Source: Naegleria gruberi | Taxonomy: Eukaryota | Reading direction: 5' to 3' (one strand) | DNA: 64,000 bases | Assembly: GCA_000004985.1 (NCBI GenBank) | Contig: GG738916.1 | Shown: positions 3,101 to 59,954 of the stretch, one piece after another | How positions within the stretch are numbered: position 1 is the first letter of the stretch | Layout: every line of letters starts with the position of its first letter | Notes under the pieces: generated by a model | What the model saw: the letters and a program-made list of their open reading frames with translations, nothing else | Told to the model about the DNA's origin: nothing | The model's database searches: none | Made by a program: the position numbers and the translations under genes

Positions 3101-3388
3101 CTTGTTGGGGATGTGATTTGTTTTTTTTCTTCAATCATTTCAATGTAAAAGTTGAAATGTGGAAAGTTAAAGTTCCAGATTAGAATAACCGTACATTGCG
3201 GCCTTAGAAAACCGCTCCAAATTAGTAAGATTCAATGATTGAACATGATTGAATGGCTTAGCACAGCATGTGTCTCCGCCAAGTTTTTAACTTGAGGAAA
3301 ACTAAGGAAGTCTTTGAATTTCAATGCTATTAAAAATAGCAGTGTTAAGAGAGAGCAGTACTTCAAAGAAAGAGATTAAAATGCTAAA

Positions 3389-3477
3389 AGGCGACTGAGG
3401 GAATTGAACCCTCGACCCTCAGTTATCTCAGCATTTCTGCCTACAAGACTGATGCACTGCCACTGTGCTAAGCCGCC
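3389..3477 (-). tRNA. tRNA-Thr (anticodon UGU) with a 17-nt intron between positions 37 and 38
   Basis: Antisense sequence GGCGGCTTAGCACAGTGGCAGTGCATCAGTCTTGTA[GGCAGAAATGCTGAGAT]AACTGAGGGTCGAGGGTTCAATTCCCTCAGTCGCCT. Acceptor 7 bp (GGCGGCT/AGTCGCC, one G-U). D-stem GCAC/GTGC. Anticodon stem TCAGT/ACTGA with loop CTTGTAA. T-arm GAGGG-TTCAATT-CCCTC. The insert sits exactly at the canonical nuclear intron position. Confidence 0.8.
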
Positions 3478-3610
3478 TTACGAAGATTTTATATACAACA
3501 TTTTATGTCGATGTTATGTTCTTTAGAAAATCTACAACCACCTTCATCAATCCACCAATAATTATTTTCAAATGTTGGTTGTAGTGGAATGACTTGTTGG
3601 ATAAAATTTA

Positions 3611-6600
3611 TTATTCATAAACCTCAGCAAATTCAGTAGCACTTCTTCCAAATATTTCAGGAGTGTACATTTCCTCTGCCTTTACACTAGGAATCACAAA
3701 TGAACCAATGGATGTTGCTCTGGCAATATATGTGAATTGATGAGTGCCTTCCCATAATAGTGAAGTAAATGCTTCGACTCTTTCATCTCTAATGTTGTGA
3801 TGTTCGTACCAGATTGGATTAATCCACCAACACCAAGAATTTGGTTTGTTGGTTTTACTTCCATTGAGAGAGGAAATCTCTGGAGTTCCTTTCAATTCTG
3901 GATTGATTGGTTCGAGACCAGCTGGTAAATAGTCAACTAAGGCAACATGATATCTACGACTGGTATTTGTCATGGTCAACTTGACACGAATCAATTCTCC
4001 AGCTTTAAATCTCCAAGTATTCTTTTCCTTATCAAATGAAACATGAGAAGAATCAGTAACATGTTCATAGGTTCTTTGAACTTCAAATCCATAATCCAAT
4101 GCATCAACAAGTAAATTCTTTGGTGCATATTCCATTCCAATTCTGTAATATAATCTTCCAGGACCTTGCTTTGAGATGGCAAGAGTCTTTTTTTCATATT
4201 CCAACAAACTCATTGGAATATTTAATTGATTTTCATCCTTGGATCTTCCCTTGAACACTTGTTCTCCACAATAATCTTCACCCAACCACATGTTGGCCAC
4301 AAAATCTGGTGTCACACCTTCGAAAACATTAAAATAGGTATTGAGAGCAAGAAGAATGAAAACGTTTTCTTGAGTATTTCCCCAACGACCCTTCTTTTTG
4401 TGAGCTAGCAATCCCTTAACAATCTTTGGAATGAGATAATTGTTAGGAGTAATATTAATAAGAGCTTCTAAACAAATTCCGTCAGTTCTTCTGTCACTAT
4501 GTAACATGACATGTTTAGTTGACAGTACATCACCATAACTTGTAATAAAGTTGGCAGTTTGTGCAGTTTCATTAACATGCTTATTCAAATGTTCAATGAT
4601 TTGATTGGCTGAGGCGGTAGCTCTATTATTATTAGATAAATACATGGCAGTGGCCAACCAAGCTAAATGTTCAAAGTTTCCATTCAATTTGTAGGTTTGG
4701 TAATGTTTTTCAGCTAAATTCTTGACCTGAGAATCACCCAACAAAGCCAAAGCATAATATGCATAAGCCTTGGTAGATTTAATAGATTCCTCAGAATAAT
4801 CAAGTTCAATACAATAATTTTCAATACTTCTCAATACTGGAATTAATTTTGAGAGGGTTCCTTCATTCACTGAATATCCTGCAATCTTGGCACGTCCAAG
4901 CATGTGGCCAACATGGCAGGTCACATATGGACTGATACGATAATTATTATTATAGGACCAGTATCCAAATCCACCATTTGGAAATTGTCTTGCTTCTAAG
5001 GCAGTAAGAGCATGTTTGATATTATTATCGATTGCTTCCTTACTAGGAATTTGTTGTGAATTGAATGCAAGAAGAATGTCTTTCAAAGAAATAATGGAAA
5101 GTAATCTGCTGGAAATTTGTTCACTGCATTCGTATGGATAATTGTACAAGTATAAGAAACTGTCAGTGAGTGAAGAAAGTGCAGTAGAGCTAGTAGAAAT
5201 CTTTAAGCCTCCAAATTGAGTGAAAACATTTGGAGGAGCCTTAACAGGTTGGAAAACAGAAGAATCTCCATCCATTTCACCATAAGTGGCAAATGCTTCA
5301 GTAGTGGCAGGTGTAAATACTCTAATTTCCTTTTCAATGGCATCAGAAAAGTTAATTCCGATTGTGGCAATCGACACACCAATTTGGAATCGTGCAATAC
5401 CAACTCTATCGGTTGACATTGGGAATCTCAATTCAGTTCTTCCTAAAGCTGGAATCCTAATCTTGAGGCCCTTCTTTGACTCATCCAACAAGTTCAAATT
5501 GGTAAAATTGATAGCTGCATTTACCTCCAAATTCAATTGAGTTTGATTTTGTAAAACACATGTAAATTCTACTCTATCACCAAAGTTCAAGAATCGAGGA
5601 AGAGATGGCCTAATTGACAATGGAAGTTGAGCTATCATGGAAGATTCATGAATTCCAAAATTCCAATCACCCTTAACAGCAACTGCTGTGATTCTATATT
5701 TTGTAAGATTGTCAGGTATCTTGAATTTTACACTTGTGAATCCTTCTGCATTTGTCTTACTAGATGGACTAAAGATTGCCAATGGATTGAAATTTGATCT
5801 CACTGCAATCATTGGTTGTTCAGGTACTGGCATACCAGCAAATGCTGCACTACCAAACGCAAAGCCACCATACGATTGGACTGAAGGAGAAAATGGATCA
5901 GATGCTGGCATTTGTTGCATTTGCATTTGCATCGGATAACTATGATGATTATGAGAAAATGAAAAACCTGAGTTAGTAAGAGAAGTTCCAAACAGGGAAT
6001 TGGTGGTGGTATAAGTTTGCTCCTCTTGGAATATTATTCCCTGATAGCTCTTTACAAATACATTATTTCTGAGAGAGTAAGGTTGATAAGTAGTGTTGTA
6101 TGGTGTAACAAAGGTATCTAGTGGATTACTGATGGAGTAGTTGGTGAGAGAGAGTACAGCTTCGTCCACAGCAATGATACACACTTCACATCCTTCTTGT
6201 GGAGCTCCAGTCATTGGATCCTTAACTAGTACACTGATACTGGTTTCACTTCCAGGTGTCAAATATTCTCTTTCAGGTTTAGATTCCACAGATAAGCTTC
6301 TTGAATTTTTTGAAACCTCAATATCACAAGAACCTGATGAAAAAGCAGGTTGCTTTGGTAAATCTAAAACAGTGCCCGTGGCATCTACTCTTGATTCAGA
6401 ACCTGAGAGTTCAACACTTACTTTAACATTTGGAATGTGATCTAGAGTAATTCCAAGCTCAAATTCTGTATAACCAAGATCAGCATCAATTTGAATTGGA
6501 TATTGACGATGAATTCCATGAAGTTGTGTAAACAGTACGCCTTCAGCTTTGGAATCAAATGGAGATTGAATCAGAATCTTGGCCTTTTCTCCAACTTGAT

Positions 6601-9521
6601 ATTCTTTCTTATCTGTAAGAAGAGTGAGTTGTTTCTTCCCTATCAAAACTTCTCTTGCAGAAAATCCAGTGATAAATAAACTTGTTGATGCTTTGTTTGT
6701 TTGTCCTGTAGCAGAATCAACAATACCAATAGAAAATGAATAGTTGCCACCTTTTTCAAATTTGACAGAATATTCAATTGGTTCATTTTCCGATATGAAA
6801 ACCTTATCAATAACTTCAACAGTTTCAGAAGCATATTTGTATCCTTTCTTGACATTCACTTGAGTAGTGACTTTCAATTGGATTGGTATTCCTGAAACCA
6901 AATTTCCGTCAATATCTGTAACAATCAAAGAGGCAGTTATAGGAACATTTTGTTTTGCAAATTCTCGACTCAACTTGATTCCACAATAATATTTGCAAGG
7001 GTGAACGAGGAAGGATGCTGATGATGTCATTGTTTGTCTATTGATATCTTGAACTGTAGATTCTACAGAAATGGTGATTGGAGCCTTCTTTACACGATTA
7101 CTCTCCTCAAATGCAATTGCAATTTGGTGTTCTCCATCACCATCTGTTGTACCTTCAAAGGTTGTAACACCAACATTTGAGTTGGCCGAGAAAAGTTGCT
7201 TTACAAAGTCGTTTCCAAAGAAATTGAGAGACGTTCCAAAAGTGTATGAGGATTGATTTGGAGGAGTGTAGCTGCTGGTAGTTTGTTTGATAGTGTATCT
7301 GCATTTGGCTCCTGAAATTCCACCTCCACTATAGTAATCTGCATTGGTTGTGCAGATGGCAGATCCACCAACAATGTAATTTCCAGGTGATACTGAAGAT
7401 TTTGATTTGAACTCTGGAGTTCTAAATTCTTGAACCTTGAATGCGTGATTTGATGAAAAATCAGAGAACATAATTGTGTGACTTCCCAAGTTGGCATTAT
7501 CTGGAACTTTGAATTGAATATTAAATGTACCATCAGAGCTTAATTGTACTTTGCCTGATTCGTATCGTTGTTGTCTGGCATCTAAAATTGTGTAAGTGGA
7601 AGAATTTGTTGGAATATCAATGCTAAAAACATTTCCTTTCAAATTAAATCTTCTTACGTAACCCTTAATAGAGACAGTCTCACCTGGCTTGTACAATCCT
7701 CTATCATTGAAAATATGGGCAGTTATTTGAGGAGTAAACGCATTTCTGGCATAATATACATCTGGAATGAAACATGTGTCATGTCCATGAGTTGCTATGG
7801 CATTCAAAGAGCAGGAACCATAACTATTTCCAGAAATATTTTTAATACAACCAATTCCAGTTTTTGCATCTGGTGAACTTGTTGTATGATTATTAAAGTG
7901 GAAGGTCACATTGTCCTTAATAATACTGCCATCAATTAAGGAATTTACCCAATAGTAGGCAATTGAAGAGTTATTATCAATAACGCAATCAACTGCAATC
8001 TTCGTTGTTTGAATCCATGAAACATAACCAGGTCGAGTGTTCCATGAAGCTTTCCAGCTATTCATTTCAGCTTCAACAACCACCAACAATTGGCCAATGC
8101 TCTCAGATGGATACTGAAGATATTCTTGAAGATTAATTTCAGTTTCGACTGGTTCGTCAACTTCTCCCTTTGTTGATATGATTCCATCATAAACTAGAGT
8201 GCCAGGATATTTAATGGTAGCGTCTGTTTGGAATCTGAGTACTGAATGATTGAACATCGTGGATGGATTGACCTGGTAAACCCTGCAACGTACAGCATCC
8301 AAATTTACAGTTACAATAGGATAAGATGGACTTGGATTCAATGTTGGATCCATAACAATAACACCGGTTTTGAATGCTTGGATTGATTGGCGTGCACCTT
8401 TAACTTGAAATTCTACAGTAAGGTCTTTAAGCACTTGCCCCCAAACATCGACAAGATTCTTTACGAAAACCTTGTATGTTGTTCTTCCTTTGATTTTACC
8501 TGAGATGCTAATACTATTTCCAAATGGATTTAATGACATCCGTTCAATTGGTGGTGAAACAGTGAACATATTTTCTGTCAATTTTTCCAAATCAATGCCA
8601 GTTGTGAATTGCAAACTAAAAGCTTGCATTGGGAGCTCTCCTCCATACTTTTTGATAAACTCGAACGCAGGATAATTATTTACAGTGGTGATATGAGAAT
8701 GTAGTGTTGGCAATGGTCCTTCTGTTCCTGTAACTCCGCTCATGATACTCACCTTTACAGAGTTTCCAAAAAGATAATTACTAACATGGAACCACAAATG
8801 TCGTTTCTCTGGAGCATTTTTGAGTTTTCGTTTGTAAGCTTCATAAGTATGATAATCCCTCTTCTCCAAGTCGAAATCTTTGAGTGCTTTGAGGATGAAC
8901 TCCTGTACGAGAGGATTTGAACTCTTGCCGTCATGAATTAAGGTGGCTAAATTACTATTCTCATTAATTGAAATGAATTTGATAACTTCACTTGGATCAA
9001 TGTCTTGATCGAATTCTAAATAGTAAATTGGAACTTCATTCAGAGGATGAATAGTGTGATCAGAAGGAAGGGAGCTGATTAAAGATAATCTTGGAGTTTC
9101 AAAACTAAATGTCAAATCTTCTTTCAAAATTCCTCCAATTTCTGATTTGGTTCCCTTCTTAACAGTGACTGTATACTTGGTGGACATGTCAAATCTGTAT
9201 TTGGCTGCGTAAACTAGAGTTTTTGTGCCCAACCATTTGAATTGACCTCCTTTTTTTGGAAGAGGAGAAACATCCACTGGAACTGTATCCATTACTTCAT
9301 CAATACTGCTGACAGGAACCATCGGTTGAGAGAAGGTAATAGTGATCGATGGCACTGAACGATCCAACACACCTTCAGGCGAATAACGAATCACACTCAA
9401 CTCTGATCCTAAAATCTTTTCCTCCTCTTCAATCAATTCTTTTGGTTTCTCCAAATTCATTTCCGGTGGAAAGGGTACATTATTGATCTCTGCAGTAATT
9501 GGTGCTTTCAACGATTTTTCT
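3611..9521 (-). CDS. Alpha-2-macroglobulin family thioester-containing protein of bacterial type. Intronless, about 1970 aa, with no ATG of its own.
   Basis: Thioester-region motif YNYPYECSEQ is CxEQ type, not the metazoan GCGEQ. The N-terminal Ig-like module has ITFSQPMVPV. The A2M_comp-like segment has ARQFPNGGFGYWS. The C-terminal module DERVEAF...YIARATSIGSFVIPSVKAEEMYTPEIFGRSATE resembles the last domain of bacterial A2Ms. The track's M at 9511 is actually TTG (plus strand 9509-9511 = caa). The frame is open upstream only to a TGA at about 9536. There is no ATG and no signal peptide. Confidence 0.6.
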
Positions 9522-9552
9522 CTTTGATTAATTCATAATATAAGATATTAAA

Positions 9553-11301
9553 TTATTTAAATTGTAAATTATTATTGTAAAAGAAAACAAACCTCATGAA
9601 GAAATCCTTGCAATCATCCACTTCAGATGCAATATTCGGAAGTCTATTCAATAATTGGCTAGTTTCATTTGCTGACAAACTTTCAATATTTGATGACACA
9701 TCACCACCACCTGATGATGATCCAATATTTACTTTTTCCATCATCATGATCAATGATCGGGTTGTGTCCTCTGCAGTAGGTTCTCTAACAGTCAACTTTA
9801 AGCCATTATTTATGTTGTTCATCATGGAAGAAGCACCACCAAACAAATTAACACCACCGAAAGGAGGAGTTGTTGGAGATAGTTGTGATGGATAGCCACC
9901 ACCAAATAAAACAGAATTTACAGAGGGTAGTTGTGAAAACATTTTTTTGGTATTTTGTTTTGTGAGATGGTGAACCTTTTGAAGGTAATGGTGAACTTGA
10001 AAGTGTACGAAATAGAAGATTAACAGAACATTTTTAATATCCTCTAACAATTGTTTCAATTCCTCACTGCCATCAAATGGTTCGTCTCTGTAGCCAAGTT
10101 GCAGGTCAAAGTTGCCCATTTTCATCAAGCCATGAAACCAACTGTTTGTGAAAAAGTACAATCTTGGAATAGAATATAAAATATTGAGATAGGTTTGGTG
10201 TCGTGTGAATGTAGTTTCGTCTGGAATGGTAACATTTATACCATTCTTTTCCCAAATTGGGACGATAATTTCTATTACTTTGGATCTGACTTGTTTATCA
10301 TCAAATGATGTTTCCATATCTGAAACGGGCATGTCCTTGTTCAGCATTTCTAAAAGACAGGCCCAATGAGCTAGAGTTTCACACTCCTTTACAACTGAAG
10401 TGAATCTGCTTTGTGGCCAATCAAGAACGGCAGATACCTTTGCTGTATCTAAGGATGCATTGCTTTTGATCATTATATTCGATGCATTCAAATCACAATG
10501 ACAAAATTGATAGACATTAGGATCTTCCACTCCATCATCTGTATGCAACAGTTTGGATTTCAAATCAAGAAGAGGTTCTGAATGAAGAGAAACAAAATCA
10601 AGATAATGAGGATAATGAACTTGTTCTCCAGTATTCGAAATTTGATTCAGAGTGAAATCTATTTGCTCAATGACCATTTCTTTCAAATTCTTGAAAGGTC
10701 CCAATGGAGCACAATCACCAACAATTACTCCAAGAGAACTCTTTTCACTTCCCAACAAGGATCCAACTTGATAATCATCCTTCTTATTCTCGGAATTTGT
10801 GTGTAATTTTCCAACAATAACGATCAACTCCTCAAGAAGCTGAACTTTCTGTTTGATTGAGAGAAATCTCCAAGAGTTTGCCAAAGTTTGTCCTTTTGCC
10901 CTCTCTTGCAAAATATATTCGCAACCAAGAGGGGACTCTTCAGCATTATCTGAATAGGAAACAATTTTAGGTGTTGGTATTCCAGCTTTCTCAGCAAATA
11001 GAATGCATTTGACTTCATTCCGAACAGAAATTCCTTTCCAGAAAGTGTGACAATTGGAAATTCGCAAAACCAGTTCAACACCTTCGAGAGTTCCCTCTCT
11101 AACAGCTCGGATCATGAATATTGAATTGATGACTCCTCCAGATTCTTCAAACTTATAAAATTCTTTGAAAATCAAATGGTGTTGTTGTAAGAGAAGAGGA
11201 AGAGTATGTGTGAAATTCTCCAACAAATTATTCATTATTTGATGGTATTTAGTTTCTTGTTCAGAGAAGGTGGGATGGTGGAGAGTAATGCGAGATGACA
11301 T
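9553..11301 (-). CDS. Protein with an APH/choline-kinase-like phosphotransferase domain and a low-complexity FG/Ser-rich tail. Possibly the 5' exon of the downstream A2M ORF.
   Basis: True ATG at 11299-11301. Kinase-like catalytic loop HCDLNASNIMI (HxDxxxxN) and VLDWPQS (D-x-W/F metal-binding-like motif). C-terminal 150 aa low complexity (LFGGGYPSQLSPTTPPFGGVNLFGGA...). A GTTTGT donor 10 codons before its stop is in frame with the A2M ORF (see findings). Confidence 0.5.
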   Translation of the reverse strand: MSSRITLHHPTFSEQETKYHQIMNNLLENFTHTLPLLLQQHHLIFKEFYKFEESGGVINSIFMIRAVREGTLEGVELVLRISNCHTFWKGISVRNEVKCILFAEKAGIPTPKIVSYSDNAEESPLGCEYILQERAKGQTLANSWRFLSIKQKVQLLEELIVIVGKLHTNSENKKDDYQVGSLLGSEKSSLGVIVGDCAPLGPFKNLKEMVIEQIDFTLNQISNTGEQVHYPHYLDFVSLHSEPLLDLKSKLLHTDDGVEDPNVYQFCHCDLNASNIMIKSNASLDTAKVSAVLDWPQSRFTSVVKECETLAHWACLLEMLNKDMPVSDMETSFDDKQVRSKVIEIIVPIWEKNGINVTIPDETTFTRHQTYLNILYSIPRLYFFTNSWFHGLMKMGNFDLQLGYRDEPFDGSEELKQLLEDIKNVLLIFYFVHFQVHHYLQKVHHLTKQNTKKMFSQLPSVNSVLFGGGYPSQLSPTTPPFGGVNLFGGASSMMNNINNGLKLTVREPTAEDTTRSLIMMMEKVNIGSSSGGGDVSSNIESLSANETSQLLNRLPNIASEVDDCKDFFMRFVFFYNNNLQFK

Positions 11302-16389: not shown

Positions 16390-17901
16390 ATGTATCCAAA
16401 CCCGACAGGAAATCCTCCTCAATATGGACAACCCATGGATACTATTCAACAAGAGCAATATCCTCTTCAGCAGCCTCCTGTTGGCATGTTTCAACCTCCT
16501 GTGCAAATGGCTCAAGGTCAACCACCAGTGGGAAAACCTCTTCCTCAACCACCAATGATGTTGAATACTATGATGGCTACTACTCAGGTAACTTCTACTA
16601 CTATGGAACAGAAAGGTTCTTTCTATGGAAGTCAACAAAGTGTCGACATTGCTGTCGTTCCTCAACCAATGATGCAAAATCAACCTGTCATGATTAAACC
16701 TCTTCCTCAACCAATGGCTATGAATCCAGTTATGGTTCCTCAACCAATGGTAATTCCCCAACAACCAATTGCCTATCCTTCTATGAATCAACCCATGATG
16801 GTCACCAGCTCTCCAATGATGGTCAACCCAAACGTTGTTTATCCTCAACAAACATTCATTCCTTCAGTCAACCCATGTGATTTAAAAAACATTGACGATT
16901 ATGATCTATTGAACAACAACCTGAAATCATGTCGTTTTGCAGATGGTGAAACAATGCTCATGTTTCTCACCAAATTAATCATTGAATGTGCCTTCTTTCC
17001 AGGAATTGGAACTTTTCTTTGCATTAATTTCAGGAAAAGAAGAGAAGTTAAGGAAATGATGTTTGGGAATCGCATGCTAAGATACAAATCGAGAGGAAAC
17101 TACAAGTTGGCACTCTTGTATTTTGTAGATGCCATTTTGATTGTCTTTACTTTTGGTTTGTGGTATATTTTGGGTAAATCTCATGAATTCTTCTGGTCGC
17201 ACATAGACGAAAGGATTTACTGGGGAAAACCAGTTCAAATGAAGAAGAGAAAGAAGGCCACCTTTCAAGATTTCCTAGTTTGGGAGCCTGTCTGTGAGGG
17301 AAACGGCATGGGAACAATGAAGATCTATAATGTCTATCTGGGAGTAGTAGACGAATTGATCTATCTCATTCTGAAATTTGTTTCCACTTCAACATTTGGT
17401 TTATTCCAACCTTTCGTAGACTCTTTCTACTATCCAAAATACTTTGCCAAAGTTGATTTGGGAGTTGGCAGATTCTGCGTCATTCATCCTCAAATGGTTC
17501 CAGCCATCAATGAACATGCCAAAAAGAAGAAACTCAAAAAGGCACCTCCTCCAGAAGTTCCCCTCGATATCTATCCAAGTCCATATCCAGTTTATGGTTA
17601 TCCACATCGTCCAGAACATGATTTATACAAGTTACGTTTGAATTTCGATACGAAAGGTGGAAAAATGTGTAAATTAATCTCATACCACATGTGTGAAAGA
17701 ACCATTACTTGCATGACATGCACATTATTTCAAGTGACAGGTTTGAATGAACTCTATCAACACCATTTCAGAAATAAGTTTATTAGAATGTATGTTGAAA
17801 AGTGTGTCATTGAACAACAACCACCACCTGTCTATTACACACAGGCAAATGTTGCAACTGTAAACTCAACAACTGTCGTTACCGTCAACTCTCAAATATA
17901 A
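16390..17901 (+). CDS. Pro/Gln/Met-rich N-terminal repeat protein with predicted transmembrane segments
   Basis: First real ATG at 16390 (MYPNPTGNPPQYGQP); the track start at 16366 is TTG. About 160 aa of PQPM/QPPVG-type repeats. Hydrophobic helices at FLTKLIIECAFFPGIGTFLCINF and LALLYFVDAILIVFTFGLWYILG. Function unknown. Confidence 0.4.
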   Translation: MYPNPTGNPPQYGQPMDTIQQEQYPLQQPPVGMFQPPVQMAQGQPPVGKPLPQPPMMLNTMMATTQVTSTTMEQKGSFYGSQQSVDIAVVPQPMMQNQPVMIKPLPQPMAMNPVMVPQPMVIPQQPIAYPSMNQPMMVTSSPMMVNPNVVYPQQTFIPSVNPCDLKNIDDYDLLNNNLKSCRFADGETMLMFLTKLIIECAFFPGIGTFLCINFRKRREVKEMMFGNRMLRYKSRGNYKLALLYFVDAILIVFTFGLWYILGKSHEFFWSHIDERIYWGKPVQMKKRKKATFQDFLVWEPVCEGNGMGTMKIYNVYLGVVDELIYLILKFVSTSTFGLFQPFVDSFYYPKYFAKVDLGVGRFCVIHPQMVPAINEHAKKKKLKKAPPPEVPLDIYPSPYPVYGYPHRPEHDLYKLRLNFDTKGGKMCKLISYHMCERTITCMTCTLFQVTGLNELYQHHFRNKFIRMYVEKCVIEQQPPPVYYTQANVATVNSTTVVTVNSQI

Positions 17902-17911
17902 AACTATTCGA

Positions 17912-19018
17912 ATGATTCATTTATTTACGTTTTCCTTATTTAGCACAGTTCAACCCATTACAGTAGATTACGATTTGGATTATGCTCCCAAAAAAATGTT
18001 TCAACGTTCAACCTTAGTGTTCATCATGGTTGTGATGATGATAATGATGGTCGGTTCATCATTAGCTCTCGACGCATGTCAACTCTTGAAAACTAAACAA
18101 CAACAATATCAAGACCTTAATAACTCTATGGAGGAATTAAACTTGATGATTAAGGCACTCGGAGGATTATCCAAGAACAAGCAATCAAATTTTAGTAACG
18201 TTGCTGTGAATGATCAAATTGATAGCATGAATAGAAATGTTCAAGACCTGTTGGAAATTAAGAAGAATTTGGAAATGCATATTGCTGCATTGCAGTTGTT
18301 ATGTGCTTTTCCTTCATCATCTTCAAAAAGTGGAGAAAGTCAACCAACTGTATCAACAACAACAACCAAGATGAGTCCTTTGAGTACTCCTGTAACTACT
18401 CCAATCATCAATACTCCACCACCACCACCACCATTATCAGATACTAGTAAAATGGAAGAAGCAATTAGTATTGGAGATGGTTTGGCATCATGTCAAGAAT
18501 ATATGAAATCAATGACAAAGGCACCAAGTGGATTGTATTGGATTAAGCCAGATGAAAGTCAATCTAAATATATTGTATATTGTGATCAAGTGACTTCTGG
18601 TGGTGGTTGGATTTTAGTTTCCTCAAGAAAGAATGCACTTTCTCCTAAAGTTGCATCCATAATTGTCAAACCAAGTTTTAATGGCGATTCATTGAGTAAG
18701 GAAAAGTGGACTGTTCTCAGAAATATTGCAAAAGAACTTATGGTAAAGAGTATCGATAATAGAACTGCCATTGCTGATATGAGTGAGCTTAAAGCACCAA
18801 ATATTTGTAAGAGTTTGGCAAGTGACTTGACGGACTCTCTTCTCTACCATCGTGAAAATAGTGGTTGTCAAATGACTGGTCTTGATTATTGTTTATTAGG
18901 TGTTCAAGTGGGTAGAACTGCAGAAATCTATGGTCAATGTTCTCCAAATCCATGGAAAACTTATGGATTCCAAGGAAAATATGAACAATTGCCAGAATCA
19001 AACATTTTTGTTAGATAA
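17912..19018 (+). CDS. Membrane-anchored protein with a coiled-coil and a partial fibrinogen-related-domain (FReD)-like C-terminal region
   Basis: Hydrophobic anchor VFIMVVMMIMMVGSSLAL. Coiled-coil region. Then CQEYMKSMTKAPSGLYWIKPDESQSKYIVYCDQVTSGGGWILVSS, which matches the N-terminal half of the fibrinogen C-terminal domain consensus (C..Y.......GVY.I.P.....F.VYCDM.T.GGGWTV.Q.R). The distal half of a canonical FReD is not recognisable. Confidence 0.4.
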   Translation: MIHLFTFSLFSTVQPITVDYDLDYAPKKMFQRSTLVFIMVVMMIMMVGSSLALDACQLLKTKQQQYQDLNNSMEELNLMIKALGGLSKNKQSNFSNVAVNDQIDSMNRNVQDLLEIKKNLEMHIAALQLLCAFPSSSSKSGESQPTVSTTTTKMSPLSTPVTTPIINTPPPPPPLSDTSKMEEAISIGDGLASCQEYMKSMTKAPSGLYWIKPDESQSKYIVYCDQVTSGGGWILVSSRKNALSPKVASIIVKPSFNGDSLSKEKWTVLRNIAKELMVKSIDNRTAIADMSELKAPNICKSLASDLTDSLLYHRENSGCQMTGLDYCLLGVQVGRTAEIYGQCSPNPWKTYGFQGKYEQLPESNIFVR

Positions 19019-27537: not shown

Positions 27538-29016
27538 ATGCAAGAAGAAGAATCGGAGGATGGCTTTTCATTGTATGAATTCTACATGAATCACAATAAA
27601 AAATCAAAAATTGCTGTTGAGGGAGTGAATAGAAAACCAAAGGAAGATTTTTGCTTTTGGAATAAACTTTGTTCCGATGTTGAAGATGTTTTTGATGAAG
27701 AAACAGGCTTTGCAACTCAACCCGAGAGGAGAATTGGTCATTCTGCTGTTTATTTGGCTGGAACTGATGGTAGGTTGATCAATTATTGAAAGAATATATT
27801 TGGAAATATTGTAAATATATTATTATTTACTGTAAATATATTGAATGGAAAATGATTTAAAAAAGAAATTTATATTTTTGGCGGAAGAGAATCTGAAGAT
27901 TTGTGTGATATGTGGAGTTTTCATATTCCTACGAGAGAGTGGACTGAATTTTATGCAAAGAGTCGAACAGAATGTTGGCCTTCCCCAATGTTTGATCATA
28001 CTGCAGTTTCGATTAGTTTATCCAGAAAGAGATTTGAAAAATTCTTGATGAGATATCCAGAAATTGGAAAATTGAGTGATTTGCAACAAGATGAAAACTG
28101 CTTTCCTTTTGTCGAAAAATTCTATAATCAAATGTACATATTTGGAGGGTACAATTCGAGCAAACACTTTTCCAATGATTTGTATTGTTATGATTTTACA
28201 TTTAAGAAATTTATCAAGATTGAGTATACTGGGAAGGAATCTGAAATGATTATGGAACGATCCAGACATTGCATGGTTTCAGTTAAGGATCAATATTTGT
28301 ACATTATTGGTGGAATGACTGACAAATCCAAAACATTGATGGATGTTTGGGAGTATGATATTGATAGAAATGTAATGAAATGCCTATCAAAACATTCAGA
28401 TCAATATTCTGAATCATTTCCCAACTCGAGAACTTATCACTCGTGTGTTTATTCAAAACTTAATCATTCCATTTACATGTTCGGAGGAATTAGAAATAAT
28501 GAAGCATTCCAAGATTTGTGGAGATTTGATTTGAGAGCTTTGCAATGGTTTCCCATAGATAACATGAAAGGTTTCGTTCCAGTGGAGAGGTTTAGACATA
28601 ATTGTTTTATTCCCAATGAGGAATCTGGATATTTCTTTGTGTATGGAGGTTACAATTTCAGACATTCATTTCTGGATTACATTTATCAATTTGATTTTTC
28701 AACATTGGAATGGACACGTTTACAGAATAGGAATTATACACAAGGTGGAGATTTTCAAAGTAAGGGATCTTTAATGTTTGTGGATTATGATGAAATTCCC
28801 TGTGCAAGATCAGGCATGACCAGTATCATTACAAAGTCTGGAGATTTGATAATATTTGGAGGCAAATCAGTGACTTGCTTGAATGACATGTTTTCATGTC
28901 GATTGCCAGGTTATTCCAAACTCAGAGCAGGAAGGCACAATTTACTCATGGAAAAGATGTATCAAAAATTGCATTCTGCTGATTCATTTGTGGACATTAC
29001 TTTTCAAATGAATTGA
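27538..29016 (+). CDS. Kelch-repeat beta-propeller protein: join(27538..27769,27866..29016)
   Basis: Kelch signatures IGHSAVYLAGTDG / EIYIFGGRE / MYIFGGYNSS / LYIIGGMTDK / IYMFGGIRNN / FFVYGGYNF / LIIFGGKS. The first ORF ends in a stop just after a GTAGGT donor at 27770. A 96-nt AT-rich intron ends ..AAAAAG at 27865. Exon 2 continues in phase 1 and restores the kelch repeat. Confidence 0.6.
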
Positions 29017-30570: not shown

Positions 30571-31927
30571 CTATTCCATTTCGGCACTCTTTTTCAATTT
30601 ACCAAGAGCAGTCGAAATTAAATCCAAATTATTTTGAACAGTCTTGGTGAGGGCAATCAATTTGGCTTCACTATCCAAGACGTCAACTGTATTGGTATAT
30701 GGATTATACTTGACAACAAATTCCTTTTCCAAATTATTCATTGTGAAACCCTTAATGAGCTCTTTACAAGATTCTAAACTATCTACAACATAATACATTG
30801 GTTGGTAGTGAGTAATTGGATAGGATCTCTCAGCTGCCTCTGTCGGAACAAAGTTTCTATACTCTGGTGGAGGTACCTTACCATTTCTATCCTTTCCAGT
30901 GCAACTGAATTCCAATTCACCAAAAGAACTCAACAAGCCAGCTCCATAAGCTTTCAATTCATTATTCTCTTTCACCAAGCCAAATTCTAAACAGTACCAA
31001 TACAATCTAACGAGTCTATCAATGTCAGCATCTGAGGCACCCAGAGAGGCAAGACCAATTTGTTGGGAGAATTCAGCAAAATCTGGATCTGCCAACATGA
31101 TTGAATGTCCCAACAATTCATGAACTACATCAGGTTCTGGTGTGTAAAATGGAGAACTGTGATGTCTAATATATTGTGTGCTGTGAAAAACTCTAAAGGC
31201 CAATCCATTCAAGAAATCTCTAGCCGACAACAAGCCAGCAACTGGACGATATCTGAAACCAGTGACTTCTACAAGGAAATCATTGACATCTTGCAATTGA
31301 GGAATATTTTCAGCTCTAAATCCACAATTTTCCTGGAATAACGGAAACAAGTAATTGTACTGTTCACAGGCATACTTTGGATAGAGTTCTGTCAATTTTT
31401 CATAAACTACCTTCCATGTATTATTCTCATTTTGTGTGTATTGGATTCTTGGAATTGGTTCTCCGTGTTTGTAATTAATGGCAATGTCAGAAATCATTTT
31501 TCTACGATCTCTATATTCTTTATCATGGAAACCTGGATGATCACTTTCTAAATCACCTCCAGCTTCAAGTGTTTGTCTATATAATTGGTCAATATTTCCA
31601 AAAAATTCAACAAGAAACAAACCTTGTGAAAAAATCAATATCCGAAATCTTTCTTGGAAACCAAGGCAATTCCTCCCCACCAAGGAATTTCACCTTCTCT
31701 GCCTTTCCATTCTCAATCATATCCTTAATGGCACTATCAACATCCTCTTTACTTGCCTGTTCATCAATATCTACGTGGAAATTAAACACACGTGTGGAAA
31801 TCTTGGAAGGTTTCGACTCAATCTTGGTCAAATTAATATTATGCTTGGAAAAGGTATCGAGGGATGATTTGAGAGCACCAACTCGATGTGGTAAAGTAAT
31901 TAACAAGGAACGATACTTGGAGGACAT
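30571..31927 (-). CDS. pah: Phenylalanine-4-hydroxylase (biopterin-dependent aromatic amino-acid hydroxylase): complement(join(30571..31576,31623..31927))
   Basis: Exon 1 carries the ACT regulatory domain and PWFPRKISDID. Exon 2 carries DHPGFHDKEYRDRRKMISDIA, the Fe-ligand region HELLGH...EFGL, and YGAGLLSSFGE. A 46-nt intron GTTTGT..TATAG in phase 2 restores a gap-free alignment to animal PAH across the join (DIDFFTRQTLEAGGDLESDHPGF). Confidence 0.8.
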
Positions 31928-32217
31928 GTTTACAAAGTTTCTGCTATAATGAAATCAACTGCTGCTTGTTTTTAAAAGGGTAAAATAATGTAGTGATCGG
32001 AAAAAAGTGGATGGGAACAGGGTTACTGTTGGTTGTTGTTGTTTTTTTTTTGTGTTGAGTTTTTGCAAGCGTTCATAATTTTCACCACATTTGATTTGCA
32101 AAGCCTAATTTGGACATTTTTGTAAACTCAAGCTCAAACCGCCAATTCATTCATTACTGCAAACTTGGCTGTTGAATAAGGAATGAAGATTTTTGTGTAT
32201 TGAGGTGCACCTGTTCT

Positions 32218-34259: not shown

Positions 34260-35655
34260 ATGAAATTGTTATCTGAAACCATTCGAAAAAAAATGGCTAA
34301 ACTTCAACATCCAACCACCTTGTTGGTGATGGCTGGCTATTTGATCGTATCCTTCTTGTGTAGTTTCTTGTTACTTTCGAATAGTGTCACTTGCATGTAC
34401 GATGATTTTCAACAAAATTCTTGGGATCAAGTTCCTGTTCAAACCAGAGAAATGATTTCGAATATTAATTCTCAACCATCAGCATCTTGGCAAGCCGTTG
34501 AATATCCTCAATTTAAAGGTAAAAGTTTGGCTGACATGACCAATGTAAGTTGTCAAAAAAATAATTTTTAATTCATTAAACAGTACTTTGACAGTTACTT
34601 GGTGCTTTGAACGTCAATGAAAACGATTTGAAAGGAGAGGTCATGGATAAAGATAATAGCACTAACACTCCTTTGAGCGATTCAAGATATTTAACAATTT
34701 TACGTTTGCGAGATTTTCCAACTCAATTCGATGCTAGAGAACAATGGCCACAATGTATTAGATCGATTAAAAATCAAAAGAATTGTGGATCTTGTTGGGC
34801 AGTAAGTTAATCTTGATGAATTTGTGTGGATAATTGGATCATGAATAGTTTTCTGTAAGTTGTTTTAATTGTGTGGTTGGTTGACTTGAATATCTCAATA
34901 GGCAAGTAGTGTTTTGGCTGATAGATTTTGTATTAAGAGTGGAGGAAAGGTTAATGTCGATCTTTCTCCTCAATTCATGGTTTCATGCAGTGGACAAAAC
35001 AATGGATGTAATGGTAAGTAGTTTACAATTTCACCAAAAAAATTGAATATTTGAAAATTAGGTGGTTTCTTTGATGCTACTTGGAGATTTTTAGTTTCTG
35101 TTGGAACAGTATCTGAAGCATGTGTTCCGTATGTTTCCTTTGGAGGCGCAGTCCCTGCATGTAATGTCAAATCTTGTGGTGTTCCAGGTCAAAAGTCACC
35201 ATTTTACAGAGCTGGTTCTGCAAGAAAACTTGAAGGAATGCTTGATATTATGGCAGATTTGAAGGCAAATGGACCTATACAAGTTGCCATGGGCGTATAC
35301 AGAGATTTCTACTCCTATAAGTCTGGTGTTTATCATCATGTGTCTGGAAGATATGTCGGTGGTCATGCTGTCAAAATTGTTGGGTAAGTTTTTGGATATT
35401 TTTCAAAGATTTTAACAGTAGCAGGTGGGGATATGATTCTGCCTCCAAGCTTCCTTATTGGATTTGTGCTAATTCTTGGGGAGAAGGTTTGTTTTTTCAT
35501 TCAGAATTAGAAAATTGTAATTTCAAAATAATTTCTAATAATTTCAATATAATTTTACAAAAGATTGGGGAATTAAAGGATATTTTTGGATCTTGAGAGG
35601 CCGTGGAGAATGTGGAATTGGAAAAATGGTTTGGTCTGGTAAGCCAGCTTTGTAA
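34260..35655 (+). CDS. Cathepsin B-like papain-family cysteine protease, six exons: join(34260..34544,34595..34801,34902..35013,35062..35383,35425..35486,35564..35655)
   Basis: Signal anchor. Active-site Cys context [20 protein letters not shown], His context [11 protein letters not shown], and Asn/Trp context [26 protein letters not shown]. Introns of 50, 100, 48, 41 and 77 nt with donors GTAAGT (x4) and GTTTGT (x1). All junction phases are consistent. Confidence 0.75.
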
Positions 35656-43540: not shown

Positions 43541-46500
43541 TTATTGAGTCTGCTTAAACATGGCCAGTTGTTTGTAAACTTTGAGCTTTGTTTGCTCATT
43601 TTCAATTAAACCAACAATCCAAGAAGAAACAGGAATGCTAAAAGCTCTCAAAATTCTTCTAGTCAACAATGCGATATTCAACACTGTAAATCTCTTAATG
43701 AGTCTTCTTGTTGGAGAAACAATTAACAACATTTCAAAGCAATAACCAATAGCCAAATGTGACAATGAATAAATTACTATCCTCAACTTGTAATAGAGTG
43801 GAAAATTAATCAAGCTTATTGCCTGTTTCAATAAATCAGTAGGTATGAAAAGTAAATAAGCTGTTGCCAAATAAATAATGATAATGAAAAGTGTAAAGGT
43901 AACTAATTGGAAATATTAACATCAAACTATTCTTATAATAAACTTACAATTGTTTGTAATGATTGGCAACTTGAATGGTTTTGAAATACTCATACAAATA
44001 GAAATATTGATAATACAGAATGTACACACAAAGAACATTATTGTCGTCTCATAGGAACGCAATAAATCATTCTTATAGTACATAAAGTTTGTGTTAATGG
44101 TTGGAGAGAACCATGGCTCACGCATAATTTCAGTCCAAACATGGAAAATGAAAGCAGAAGCAAGGAGAACGTGACCACCAAGGGAAAGGAAAATAAATCT
44201 GGAAATGAGGGTTGTTGGTGGTTTTTCTCTTTTCAGAGCTAAACTTGCATCAGTTCTCGTCATTAACAAGGTTGTTGGCATGACTACAATTAAATCAATA
44301 AATAAAAATTGAAAATCCACAAAATTACAATTTCTAGAGAGTAAGACAACAATTGTCATGATTTGAACAATAGAATAGAGGGCAATGAATTTGAAAATTT
44401 GGAAAAAGGTAAGTAAGCTTGCTCTACCTTCACGAATAACTGTAACCATTGAACCGACAGTTGGTTTCAAACTAGTGAATGGTGCTGCGACTGATATTTC
44501 TTCTGAAAGGGAAATACCAACATGGGCCGATCTGAGAGCACCCAAATCGTTGGCACCATCTCCAATCATACCTACGTCATATCCCATTTTTTGAAGTTCT
44601 GTCACTAGGGTTTTCTTATGATTAGGCGAAAATCTGGCATAAATATTGCATGATGTAAGAATGATATGAAGTAGAGAAGGTCTCTTAGTGTTAATGTATG
44701 GCTCTCTTCTGGTTTTCTTTACGAATAATCGATGTTCATTGTGTACATATTCAAACACCTCCCCAACAACTACAATGTCAATATTACGCAACTTGAGCAG
44801 CTCTTCTGTAGTAATTACTTGTCCACTCTCTGTTTGTCTCCACATGATATTCTGAATATAATCCACATTGGAGACTATTTCTCTCTTCAATTCACTCAAG
44901 TAACAATCCTTCTTTTTTTCAATAACTTTTGACTTTCTGGCAACATTTATGGAAGTGTATGCATTGTCACCACTACAAATGATGCACTTGATATTACAGT
45001 CCAATAATGTTTTGATGGATTTTGAAGTTCCTTTCTTTACCTTGTTTTCTACCAAGAGTAGACCAATAAATTCCATTTCTGATTCTACATATTCTCTTGG
45101 AAGGGTTTCCAACTCGGATAAAGTGAGATTGCTTGGTAATGTTTTACTGGCCAGTGCCATAACTCGATAGCCCTTCTGAGCATAACATTTCAACATGTCA
45201 GAGTAATTTGGAGGAATTGAGGATGGTTTAGAAATGGACTTGACAGATTCAGCACTACCTTTAGCAAATGCGTGTAAATTTCCAGTTGCATTATTCTTAA
45301 TTACTACAGACATTCTCTGAACTGAGCTCTTGAAATCAAAAACATTCAATTTAGAATAGGATTTCTCAACCTTCTGATCTGTTGACTCAAAGAATATTGT
45401 ATGACCATAAGCTGACTCGGAAATATCTTGCATGGACCACTTGCTAGTCTGGAATAATTTAGAATCCAAAGGATCACCAATAAAAGTTGTACCAACTCTA
45501 CTAAGATTGTTACAACATGCCAAACATTGAACCAATGTGCTATTAGAAGCAAATAATTTCGAAATGTTAGTTCCCTTGACATATGGATGAAAGAGACCTT
45601 CAACGGATGGGAAAATTCCATGAACATCTATTTCATTCTCGGTTATTGTGTTGGTCTTGTCAAAAACTGCAATTTTGACATATCCAGGAAGGTTAACTCG
45701 TAATGGTGAAGTACACAAAATCTTCCTCTTTCCCAATCTTCTCATAGTAAATGTTATTGTTGTTGTCATGGCCAATGGCAGGGTAGGAGGCACACTAATA
45801 GTGATAATATCTAGAATGTGTAAAAAGACATTTCCAGCTGGTGCTCCCAATTTGAATAGATTTGCAGCTGTTCCAATAATTCCAATAAATCCAGTCACTA
45901 CTAATACAATTAAGAATTTGAGAGAATCTCTATAAACATTAAACTCTGCAGTCTTTGGGAATAGAATTGATAAGAGTAATTTTCCTTTCAGAGTATTGAA
46001 TCCTGTTTGACTCACAATACCAAAGCATTTGTTTGCGAATAGACTGTTAGGAGAAGGTTTGGCTGTCAAAACTTGCGTTCCAGAAAATATTGTGTGATTA
46101 TTCTCTCTAGAAGGGTAATATAACTTGGCGTCATCATAGGGCAGTGGCCTCTTCTTGACTGGAATACTGTCACCTGTTAATTTTGATTCATTAACAATAA
46201 CTTGACCACCCAACAAAATAACATCACAAGGCAATGTCATACCATCAGTAATTTCAATAATATCTCCAGGGAATAAATCGAGAGAGTCCATTTCTTCCTC
46301 CTCTTCATTTCTCTTACTAGCATTCTCTTCTGAATAGATTGTTCTATTATATTTAGATGGTGCTCTCAGTGCAAGTCTATTTACAAAGCAATGATTCGAA
46401 GTCAAGTCCTTCAATTTTTTCAAATTATCATATGTTCTCCAAAAACTGAATGATATAACTATCAGAGTAACTATTGCTATTGAAATGCAATAAGTGTAAT

Positions 46501-59881: not shown

Positions 59882-59954
59882 TCCCCCTTAGCTCAGTCGG
59901 TAGAGCGTCAGACTGTTAATCTGCAGGTCGGTGGTTCGAGCCCACCAGGGGGAG
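59882..59954 (+). tRNA. tRNA-Asn (anticodon GUU)
   Basis: TCCCCCTTAGCTCAGTCGGTAGAGCGTCAGACTGTTAATCTGCAGGTCGGTGGTTCGAGCCCACCAGGGGGAG. Acceptor 7 bp TCCCCCT/AGGGGGA. D-stem GCTC/GAGC. Anticodon loop CTGTTAA. T-arm GGTGG-TTCGAGC-CCACC. One 27-43 mismatch. No intron. Confidence 0.85.

What the first reader, a model, noticed from the sequence alone, without database searches (positions are those of the whole stretch)
30571..31927. Phenylalanine hydroxylase interrupted by a 46-nt GTTTGT...TATAG micro-intron; local 8-bp direct repeat mimics a frameshift
Read unspliced, the gene breaks into two ORFs offset by one base. Removing 31577-31622 (minus-strand GTTTGTTTCTTG...TATAG) restores an alignment to animal PAH with exactly 15 residues between the DID and DHPGF anchors. 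The intron is near the lower size limit for spliceosomal introns and uses a GTTTGT donor. A near-repeat (GATATTGAT / AATATTGAC) flanks it and could mislead gene callers.
Basis: partly seen in the sequence, partly recalled or inferred. Interest (0 to 1): 0.5.

Follow-up and report, generated by a model that had tools for sequence, protein, structure and literature searches.

The report
Annotated short intron in Naegleria PAH
The two offset reading frames are one ordinary phenylalanine hydroxylase gene of the amoeba Naegleria gruberi, split by a real 46-base spliceosomal intron that the public gene model already removes in exactly this way.

Summary
On the minus strand, exon 1 (31927..31623), a 46-nt GT...AG segment (31622..31577) and exon 2 (31576..30571) give a 436-aa ACT + Biopterin_H protein. 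That protein is 100% identical over its full length to the deposited 'phenylalanine 4-monooxygenase [Naegleria gruberi]', so the intron is already annotated.

I found no RNA evidence, but the comparative evidence is strong:
- N. lovaniensis (56 nt) and two Willaertia magna genes (84 and 129 nt) have an intron in the same Arg codon and phase, with unrelated sequence.
- Seven intron-less homologous loci all have 78 nt between PWFP and DHPG. The window has 78+46 and N. lovaniensis 78+56.
- An environmental relative (83% identity) reads straight through the site.
- Only this 46-nt deletion has GT-AG ends.

The side claims fail. Supported introns in this window are 41-100 nt, so 46 nt is typical. 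GTTTGTTT is a recurrent local donor (3 of about 8-10 introns). The 'repeat' is a 7-nt match whose second copy lies inside the intron. A deletion guided by it would replace FFT with QLY and destroy an invariant Phe.

Verdict: ordinary and already known. The one mildly interesting by-product is a mixed GTAAGT / GTTTGTTT donor usage in this window.

The parts
31623..31927 (-). PAH exon 1 (ATG at 31927; 305 nt; ends in phase 2 inside Arg102, AG|A). It encodes the ACT domain and the first 14 residues of the catalytic domain.
   Evidence: Pfam ACT matches residues 7-60 at 25.5 bits, which is below the curated cutoff of 27. The product is identical to deposited P0001.
31577..31622 (-). 46-nt spliceosomal intron, GTTTGTTT...TATAG, 24% GC. 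If retained, the exon-1 frame reads FVSC and then stops at the TGA at 31609..31607.
   Evidence: The same codon and phase carry an intron in N. lovaniensis and in two Willaertia genes. It is the only 46-nt deletion with GT-AG ends.
30571..31576 (-). PAH exon 2 (1006 nt including the TAG stop at 30573..30571). It encodes the rest of the catalytic domain and the C-terminal helix.
   Evidence: The iron ligands H254, H259 and E299 are present.
31615..31622 (-). 5' splice site AAG|GTTTGTTT.
   Evidence: The same octamer, also preceded by AG, starts two other homology-supported introns in the window (at 9592 and 35487). Only 8 GTTTGTTT octamers occur in the whole window.
31588..31594 (-). TATTGAC, a candidate branch-site motif (it fits YNYURAY; the A is followed by 12 intron bases before the 3' junction).
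   Evidence: This is inference only. A motif scan found the same heptamer at a similar distance in the N. fowleri PAH intron, but several other introns lack any YNYTRAY match.
31635..31641 (-). Exonic copy of ATATTGA, inside the codons GAT ATT GAT (Asp-Ile-Asp 96-98).
   Evidence: The sequence is constrained by coding: D98 is invariant in the alignment.
30604..31666 (-). Span that encodes the Biopterin_H catalytic domain (residues 88-426). The intron interrupts it.
   Evidence: Pfam PF00351, 518 bits, E = 8.8e-156.

Best explanation
The window is Naegleria gruberi nuclear DNA. Positions 31927..30571 on the minus strand are a two-exon gene for a biopterin-dependent aromatic amino acid hydroxylase of the PAH type, with an N-terminal ACT regulatory domain, a catalytic domain carrying the 2-His-1-carboxylate iron site, and a C-terminal helix. 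A 46-nt U2-type GT-AG intron (31622..31577) sits in phase 2 of codon Arg102. The spliceosome removes it to give a 436-aa protein. If the intron were retained, translation would stop after four extra codons and yield a 106-aa ACT-only fragment. The intron position is old within the Naegleria/Willaertia clade of this gene. It was lost precisely in at least one close relative, and it is absent from the paralog clade, Acrasis and Dictyostelium. Shown here: the gene structure, the identity to the deposited model, the conservation of the position, and the fact that the size and donor are ordinary for this genome. Inferred: actual splicing in vivo, the branch site, and Phe as the substrate.
For: The spliced product equals deposited P0001, 'phenylalanine 4-monooxygenase [Naegleria gruberi]', at 436/436 residues. 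Pfam Biopterin_H scores 518 bits, and ACT is also detected. The alignment to PDB chain 5jk5 and to rat PAH 5den is gap-free across the junction. Exact splice mapping places an intron at the same alignment column (174) and phase (2) in N. lovaniensis (56 nt, GTAGGT) and in Willaertia magna P0003 (84 nt) and P0007 (129 nt), with unrelated intron sequences. The PWFP-to-DHPG spacing is 78 nt in 7 intron-less loci, 124 (78+46) in the window and 134 (78+56) in N. lovaniensis. The environmental relative L005 (83% identity) reads ...TTTACAAGACAGACC... uninterrupted through the site. Only the deletion at offset 0 has GT-AG ends. Other supported introns in the window are 41-100 nt, and two of them share the AG|GTTTGTTT donor. 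The iron ligands H254, H259 and E299 are intact. In N. fowleri a PAH protein is detected by proteomics and falls under iron starvation (PMC7326272).
Against: I obtained no transcript evidence. The deposited protein is a predicted gene model, the gene-position index had no record for P0001, and a scan of environmental contigs for the exon-1 end returned only unrelated chance matches. GTTTGT departs at positions +3 and +4 from the GTRAGT-type donors of all 17 mapped introns of PAH-family genes in other species. No clear polypyrimidine tract or consensus branch site is defined for this genome.
Confidence: 0.95

Rival explanations
1. There is a genuine frameshift, either an assembly or sequencing error or a pseudogene, rather than an intron. 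The 46 nt would then be coding or degenerate sequence, with a 1-nt indel somewhere in the 80-nt overlap of the two open frames.
For: Read unspliced, the two ORFs overlap and are offset by one base. No RNA data were available.
Against: Repairing a 1-nt indel would leave a 15-residue insertion in a segment whose length is fixed at 78 nt in every intron-less homolog and in the aligned solved structures. The segment has exact GT...AG ends, is 24% GC against 34% for the window, and has an early stop in the exon-1 frame. Orthologs carry introns of different lengths (56, 84 and 129 nt) at the identical codon and phase. The rest of the gene is fully conserved, including the iron ligands.
Confidence: 0.02
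2. The 46 nt removed are defined by the direct repeat ATATTGA (copies exactly 46 nt apart). That would mean excision or slippage between the repeats, removing for example 31641..31596, rather than GT-AG splicing.
For: The two copies are in register with the intron length. A run of at least 7 in-register matches occurs at only 0.4% of random positions, although this test was chosen after seeing the repeat. Such a deletion also restores the frame.
Against: The resulting protein would read KISDIDQLYRQTLE in place of KISDIDFFTRQTLE, which removes F100, an invariant residue in the 12-sequence alignment. The removed segment would begin AT and end AA, with no splice signals. The deposited model and every ortholog support FFTR/YFTR. 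Orthologous introns and other introns in the window show no in-register repeat (longest run 4 or less). Ignoring register, 44% of random positions show a shared 7-mer in at least one of the three comparisons among upstream flank, 46-nt segment and downstream flank.
Confidence: 0.01
3. The intron is real but is a regulated retention switch. A weak, non-consensus donor would favour retention, producing either a 106-aa ACT-only protein or a transcript destroyed by nonsense-mediated decay, and so tuning PAH levels.
For: Retention gives an in-frame stop after 4 codons, right after a complete ACT domain. The donor differs from GTRAGT. Intron retention is reported as the dominant form of alternative splicing across eukaryotes, including N. 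gruberi (PMC6142364).
Against: GTTTGTTT recurs in unrelated genes in the window, so it is probably not a weak site in this organism. Every orthologous intron also has an immediate in-frame stop, which is the usual state of short introns. There is no evidence for an ACT-only product.
Confidence: 0.08

Closest known systems
Deposited N. gruberi gene model 'phenylalanine 4-monooxygenase' (P0001; sources NCBI, UniRef and EukProt)
   Same: It is identical to the spliced product over all 436 residues, so the start, splice junction and stop are the same.
   Different: Nothing differs. This is the same gene with the same exon-intron structure.
Orthologous PAH genes of Naegleria lovaniensis (P0002/L001) and Willaertia magna (P0003/L003, P0007/L009)
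   Same: They carry an intron in the same Arg codon, in phase 2, with the same exon edges (..ACAAG|..|ACAAAC in N. lovaniensis). Protein identity is 67-78%.
   Different: Intron lengths are 56, 84 and 129 nt against 46 nt here. Donors are GTAGGT, GTGAGT and GTAAGT against GTTTGT here. These genes carry additional introns that N. gruberi lacks.
Dictyostelium discoideum PAH (protein P0080, locus L022). PDB chain 5jk5 is the best solved match to the window protein; that 5jk5 is the Dictyostelium enzyme is my recollection and was not shown by the tools.
   Same: It has the same ACT + Biopterin_H architecture. Chain 5jk5 matches at 458 bits and aligns gap-free over the junction.
   Different: Protein identity of P0080 is about 50%. 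Its three introns lie at other positions (alignment columns 159, 211 and 365) and none is at column 174.
Entamoeba GUUUGU(U) introns with a co-evolved U1 snRNA (bioRxiv 10.1101/2022.06.08.495308)
   Same: The extended donor GUUUGUU is the same, the introns are short, and the genome is AT-rich and intron-poor.
   Different: In Entamoeba, 88-90% of introns use this donor. In this window it is a minority class (3 of about 8-10) alongside GTAAGT. The lineages are unrelated, and no U1 snRNA could be examined here.

Membership tests
U2-type (GT-AG) spliceosomal intron | GT at the 5' end and AG at the 3' end | tested here: met
   The intron reads GTTTGT...TATAG. It is the only 46-nt frame-restoring deletion with GT-AG ends.
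U2-type (GT-AG) spliceosomal intron | Removal restores a continuous ORF that is colinear with homologs, with no residues gained or lost | tested here: met
   The alignment to PDB PAH chains is gap-free. The 78-nt anchor spacing is restored. The product is identical to the deposited model.
U2-type (GT-AG) spliceosomal intron | Position and phase conserved in orthologs while intron sequence and length diverge | tested here: met
   Alignment column 174, phase 2, carries an intron in N. lovaniensis and in two Willaertia genes, with lengths of 56, 84 and 129 nt. Similarity between these introns is no better than between non-orthologous intron pairs.
U2-type (GT-AG) spliceosomal intron | Branch-site motif upstream of the 3' splice site | tested here: inconclusive
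   TATTGAC fits YNYURAY, and its A is followed by 12 intron bases before the 3' junction. However, several other local introns have no such match.
U2-type (GT-AG) spliceosomal intron | Spliced junction observed in RNA | not testable with these tools
   No N. gruberi transcript data could be reached. There was no record in the gene-position index, and the metagenome scan gave only unrelated hits.
U12-type intron | Highly conserved /RTATCCTT donor (from established knowledge of U12 introns) | tested here: not met
   The donor is GTTTGTTT.
Biopterin-dependent aromatic amino acid hydroxylase, PAH type | Full-length Biopterin_H catalytic domain scoring above the curated cutoff | tested here: met
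   PF00351 scores 518.4 bits against a cutoff of 22.7 and covers model positions 1-330 of 331.
Biopterin-dependent aromatic amino acid hydroxylase, PAH type | 2-His-1-carboxylate iron ligands (human H285, H290 and E330; numbering from established knowledge) | tested here: met
   H254, H259 and E299 are present. H254 and H259 are invariant and E299 nearly invariant in the alignment.
Biopterin-dependent aromatic amino acid hydroxylase, PAH type | N-terminal ACT regulatory domain | tested here: inconclusive
   Pfam ACT scores 25.5 bits, just under the cutoff of 27. Residues 7-86 nevertheless align to the regulatory domain of rat PAH.
Biopterin-dependent aromatic amino acid hydroxylase, PAH type | Phenylalanine as the substrate, rather than Trp or Tyr | not testable with these tools
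   PAH chains score best (458-424 bits), ahead of TPH1 (405) and TH (371). Specificity needs a biochemical assay.
Entamoeba-type GUUUGUU splicing system | Near-universal use of the GUUUGU donor in the genome | tested here: not met
   In this window there are 3 GTTTGTTT donors against 4-5 GTAAGT donors, plus unverified GTATGT and GTAGGT candidates.
Entamoeba-type GUUUGUU splicing system | U1 snRNA with an ACAAAC 5' end | not tested
   The Rfam scan of the window found only two tRNAs and no snRNA gene.
Introner or duplication-derived intron | Extended sequence similarity among introns, or between the intron's 3' part and the upstream exon | tested here: not met
   The three GTTTGTTT introns share only the donor and a T-rich tail. 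Apart from one 7-mer, in-register similarity to the exon is weak, and it is absent in the orthologs. The intron position predates the Naegleria/Willaertia split.

The most novel reading that the evidence does not exclude
N. gruberi may use two distinct classes of 5' splice site side by side. One is the common GUAAGU. The other is an Entamoeba-like AG|GUUUGUUU class, making up roughly a third of the introns in this window. The second class is not seen in any of 17 mapped PAH-family introns from N. lovaniensis, N. fowleri, Willaertia, Acrasis and Dictyostelium. At the PAH intron the donor changed in place, from GTRAGT-like in the relatives to GTTTGT here. If this holds genome-wide, it implies unusual 5' splice-site recognition, such as a variant U1 snRNA or reliance on U6/U5 contacts. 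I found no paper in the held library that reports it.
Probability: 0.3. Interest if true: 0.4.

Novelty: already known. Interest (0 to 1): 0.1.

Why it matters
The finding matters little. The intron and the spliced protein are already in the public N. gruberi annotation, and both the size and the donor are ordinary for this genome. The work has some practical value. It shows that ORF-only gene calling splits this gene, and it exposes two imperfect or missing neighbouring gene models. It also gives a clean example of an intron position that is conserved across Naegleria and Willaertia but precisely lost in a close relative. The only point that might interest a splicing specialist is the apparent coexistence of GTAAGT and GTTTGTTT donors, which needs a genome-wide check supported by RNA-seq.

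Tried and rejected
- Gene-position look-ups for P0001 and for the N. gruberi paralog P0012 found nothing on record. I therefore got no N. gruberi locus beyond the window and no transcript contigs.
- A 2700-aa chimeric query built from 100-aa pieces of the long window ORFs, meant to retrieve all deposited models in one search, returned only 3 proteins.
- The search for the deposited cathepsin-B-like model returned no identical protein.
- The metagenome scan for the 20-mer at the end of exon 1 gave 11 loci, all unrelated chance matches.
- The unbiased scan for 'unreadable GT..AG bridges between open frames' was too noisy to yield a donor-hexamer signal.
- Apparent conservation between the N. gruberi and N. 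lovaniensis introns (local score 20, shuffle P = 0.004) was rejected, because non-orthologous intron pairs score up to 21.
- The N. gruberi genome paper (Cell 2010) is not held. Intron statistics were taken from a table in PMC8296547 instead.
- The frameshift hypothesis and the repeat-mediated deletion hypothesis were considered and rejected.
- U12-type and introner origins were considered and rejected.

Full report
**1. What is in the sequence.**
On the minus strand an ATG at 31927 opens a 106-codon ORF. A second ORF, one base out of frame, runs from 31683 to a TAG at 30573..30571. Between the conserved parts lies GTTTGTTTCTTGTTGAATTTTTTGGAAATATTGACCAATTATATAG (31622..31577). It is 46 nt long and 24% GC, against 34% for the window. 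Removing it joins 305 nt of exon 1 (phase 2, inside an AG|A Arg codon) to 1006 nt of exon 2. The result is a 1311-nt CDS encoding 436 aa.

**2. What the gene is.**
- The spliced protein has a full Biopterin_H domain (PF00351, 518 bits, residues 88-426). It also has an N-terminal ACT match at 25.5 bits, just under the Pfam cutoff of 27.
- Against solved structures, PAH chains score best: 5jk5 at 458 bits and rat PAH 5den at 435 bits. TPH1 (405) and TH (371) come next.
- The alignments cross the proposed junction without any gap.
- The iron ligands H254, H259 and E299 are present.
- By the rat PAH alignment, the split Arg102 corresponds to position 133. The intron therefore sits 14 residues inside the catalytic-domain match, not in the ACT-catalytic linker proper.

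**3. Whose gene it is, and whether this is new.**
The first database hit is 'phenylalanine 4-monooxygenase [Naegleria gruberi]', 436 aa, at 100% identity and coverage. A string comparison shows it is exactly the spliced product. So the window is N. gruberi nuclear DNA, and the public gene model already removes exactly these 46 nt. The neighbours are unrelated eukaryotic genes: an RCC1-like protein, a TLDc protein, a Kelch protein, a papain-family protease and an amidohydrolase. The antisense 126-aa ORF over exon 1 has no family match.

**4. Independent evidence that the intron is real.**
I could reach no transcript data, so I used comparative evidence.
- **Conserved position.** Exact splice mapping of annotated orthologs onto their own loci puts an intron at the same alignment column (174) and phase (2) in three genes: N. 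lovaniensis (56 nt, CACAAG|GTAGGT...CAATAG|ACAAAC) and Willaertia magna P0003 (84 nt) and P0007 (129 nt). The intron sequences are not meaningfully alignable. This is the expected pattern for a conserved intron position.
- **Anchor spacing.** Seven homologous loci lack an intron here: N. fowleri, a Willaertia paralog, and environmental contigs L005, L006 and L007, among others. All have exactly 78 nt between the PWFP and DHPG codons. The window has 124 (78+46) and N. lovaniensis has 134 (78+56).
- **Natural control.** Contig L005 comes from an environmental Naegleria relative whose PAH is 83% identical. It reads TTTACAAGACAGACC straight through the site and encodes YFTRQTLEAGG. It is a natural intron-less allele that validates the junction to the base.
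- **Uniqueness.** Sliding a 46-nt deletion across the region shows that only offset 0 has GT...AG ends.
- **Retention.** If retained, the intron stops translation after FVSC, giving a 106-aa product. The orthologous introns also carry immediate in-frame stops.

**5. Age and distribution of the intron.**
The position is absent from the N. lovaniensis paralog P0009 (three other introns) and from Acrasis kona P0016 (two other introns). It is also absent from Dictyostelium P0080, which has three introns at columns 159, 211 and 365. It is thus specific to one Naegleria/Willaertia PAH clade. By parsimony it was lost precisely in the L005 lineage.

The two Acrasis introns coincide in position and phase with the first two Dictyostelium introns. 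From my memory of the human PAH exon boundaries (c.352/353 and c.509/510), they also coincide with human introns 3 and 5. I did not test that last point here.

**6. Are the size and the donor unusual?**
Published N. gruberi figures are 1.7 exons per gene and a mean intron length of 203 bp (PMC8296547). The mean hides the short mode, so I built a local sample of introns supported by homology.
- **A2M-like gene.** A 71-nt intron at 9592..9522 (GAG|GTTTGTTT...ATCAAAG|A) joins a 5' exon to the alpha-2-macroglobulin-like ORF. The junction KDFFM|REKSLKAP matches the paralog P0122 and N. fowleri P0123.
- **Cathepsin-B-like gene (34293..35655, plus strand).** It resolves into six exons, with introns of 50, 100, 48, 41 and 77 nt. 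The first four begin GTAAGT and the last begins AAG|GTTTGTTT. The assembled product scores 188 bits on Peptidase_C1.
- **Unverified candidates.** These are a 45-nt GTAAGT intron at 43947..43903, a 154-nt GTATGT candidate at 17790..17943 and a 96-nt GTAGGT candidate at 27770..27865.
- **Conclusion.** A length of 46 nt sits in the middle of the local range of 41-100 nt. Relatives have introns of 38-43 nt, and the N. fowleri authors set a minimum intron length of 30 bp when mapping reads. GTTTGTTT is a recurrent donor: 3 of the 8 GTTTGTTT octamers in the window lie exactly at supported exon-intron boundaries, each preceded by AG. Neither feature is special to the PAH gene.

**7. The 'repeat'.**
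- The exact shared core is ATATTGA. One copy is at 31641..31635, inside the Asp-Ile-Asp codons of exon 1. The other is at 31595..31589, inside the intron rather than beyond it.
- A shared 7-mer between a 40-nt flank and the next 46 nt occurs at 19% of random positions in the window.
- The copies are, however, exactly 46 nt apart. An in-register run of at least 7 matches occurs at only 0.4% of random positions, although I chose this test after seeing the repeat.
- A deletion guided by the repeat would also restore the frame, so I tested it. It gives KISDIDQLYRQTLE, which loses the invariant F100. It has no splice signals and contradicts every ortholog.
- Orthologous introns and the other local introns show no such in-register repeat. 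I treat the match as chance.
- The intronic copy overlaps TATTGAC, a plausible branch-site motif whose A is followed by 12 intron bases before the 3' junction. That reading is inference only.

**8. Comparison with known systems.**
The intron meets every testable criterion of a U2-type GT-AG intron and fails the U12 donor criterion. The donor resembles the Entamoeba GUUUGUU site, which is used by 88-90% of Entamoeba introns and is paired with a co-evolved U1 snRNA (bioRxiv 10.1101/2022.06.08.495308). Here it is instead a minority class beside GTAAGT. No paper in the held library links Naegleria with GTTTGT or GUUUGU. All 17 mapped PAH-family introns in other species use other donors: GTAAGT, GTATGT, GTAGGT, GTGAGT or GTAACT. 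A two-class donor usage in N. gruberi is the most novel reading my data allow. It rests on about ten introns from one window.

**9. Verdict.**
The feature is an ordinary intron that is already annotated. The claims that it is near the size limit, that its donor is peculiar to it, and that a flanking 8-bp repeat is significant are not supported. Interest is low.

Noticed in passing
window 9522..9592 (-) and 9460..9747: A 71-nt intron (GAG|GTTTGTTT...ATCAAAG|A) joins a 5' exon (ATG at 9747, 9744 or 9741) to the alpha-2-macroglobulin-like ORF that ends at 3614. The junction KDFFM|REKSLKAP matches a paralog and the N. fowleri homolog. The deposited model P0121 starts at an internal Met (9460), so it looks N-terminally truncated by about 70 residues. 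It is named 'ras GTPase domain-containing' even though its Pfam hits are A2M domains.
   Followed up: partly
window 34293..35655 (+): This is a cathepsin-B-like cysteine protease gene with six exons and five short introns (50, 100, 48, 41 and 77 nt). The database search returned no identical deposited model. The closest hit is a partial N. gruberi protein (P0124) from a 1211-nt contig that is 95-100% identical over exons 1-3, possibly an allelic or duplicated contig.
   Followed up: partly
window 34795..34910 (+): Cathepsin intron 2 is odd. Splicing at the GTAAGT donor (34802) gives CGSCWA|ASSV, which lacks the conserved Phe-Ser that follows the catalytic Cys in all homologs. Reading GTAAGT as Val-Ser would require a non-GT donor at 34808. 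This could be a 6-nt deletion, a pseudogene or a non-canonical splice.
   Followed up: no
window 31622, 9592 and 35487 (donors): Three of about 8-10 supported or candidate introns in the window begin AG|GTTTGTTT, and the rest are mostly GTAAGT. None of 17 mapped PAH-family introns in other heteroloboseans or Dictyostelium uses GTTTGT. The three introns share nothing beyond the donor and a T-rich tail.
   Followed up: partly
L005 600..1710 (JGI metagenome 3300002220 contig): An environmental Naegleria relative (PAH 83% identical) lacks the codon-102 intron, but its ORF breaks at the site of N. lovaniensis intron 2 (codon 299). Intron presence and absence therefore vary among close relatives.
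   Followed up: partly
L010 (Acrasis kona) and L022 (Dictyostelium discoideum) PAH genes: Acrasis and Dictyostelium share two intron positions and phases (alignment column 159 phase 1 and column 211 phase 2). From my memory of the human PAH exon boundaries, these also match human introns 3 and 5, which would make them ancient positions. The Naegleria/Willaertia intron is not among them.
   Followed up: partly
window 3388..3478 (-) and 59882..59954 (+): There are two tRNA genes, tRNA-Thr(TGT) and tRNA-Asn(GTT). The Thr gene spans 91 nt, which is longer than a standard tRNA and suggests a tRNA intron or an extended call.
   Followed up: no
window 43903..43947 (-), 17790..17943 (+), 27770..27865 (+): These are further intron candidates that bridge long open frames: 45 nt with GTAAGT...CCAATTAG, 154 nt with GTATGT...TTATTTAG, and 96 nt with GTAGGT. 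None was verified by homology.
   Followed up: no
window 31569..31949 (+): A 126-aa ORF lies antisense to PAH exon 1 and the intron. It has no Pfam match and is most likely a shadow ORF.
   Followed up: yes
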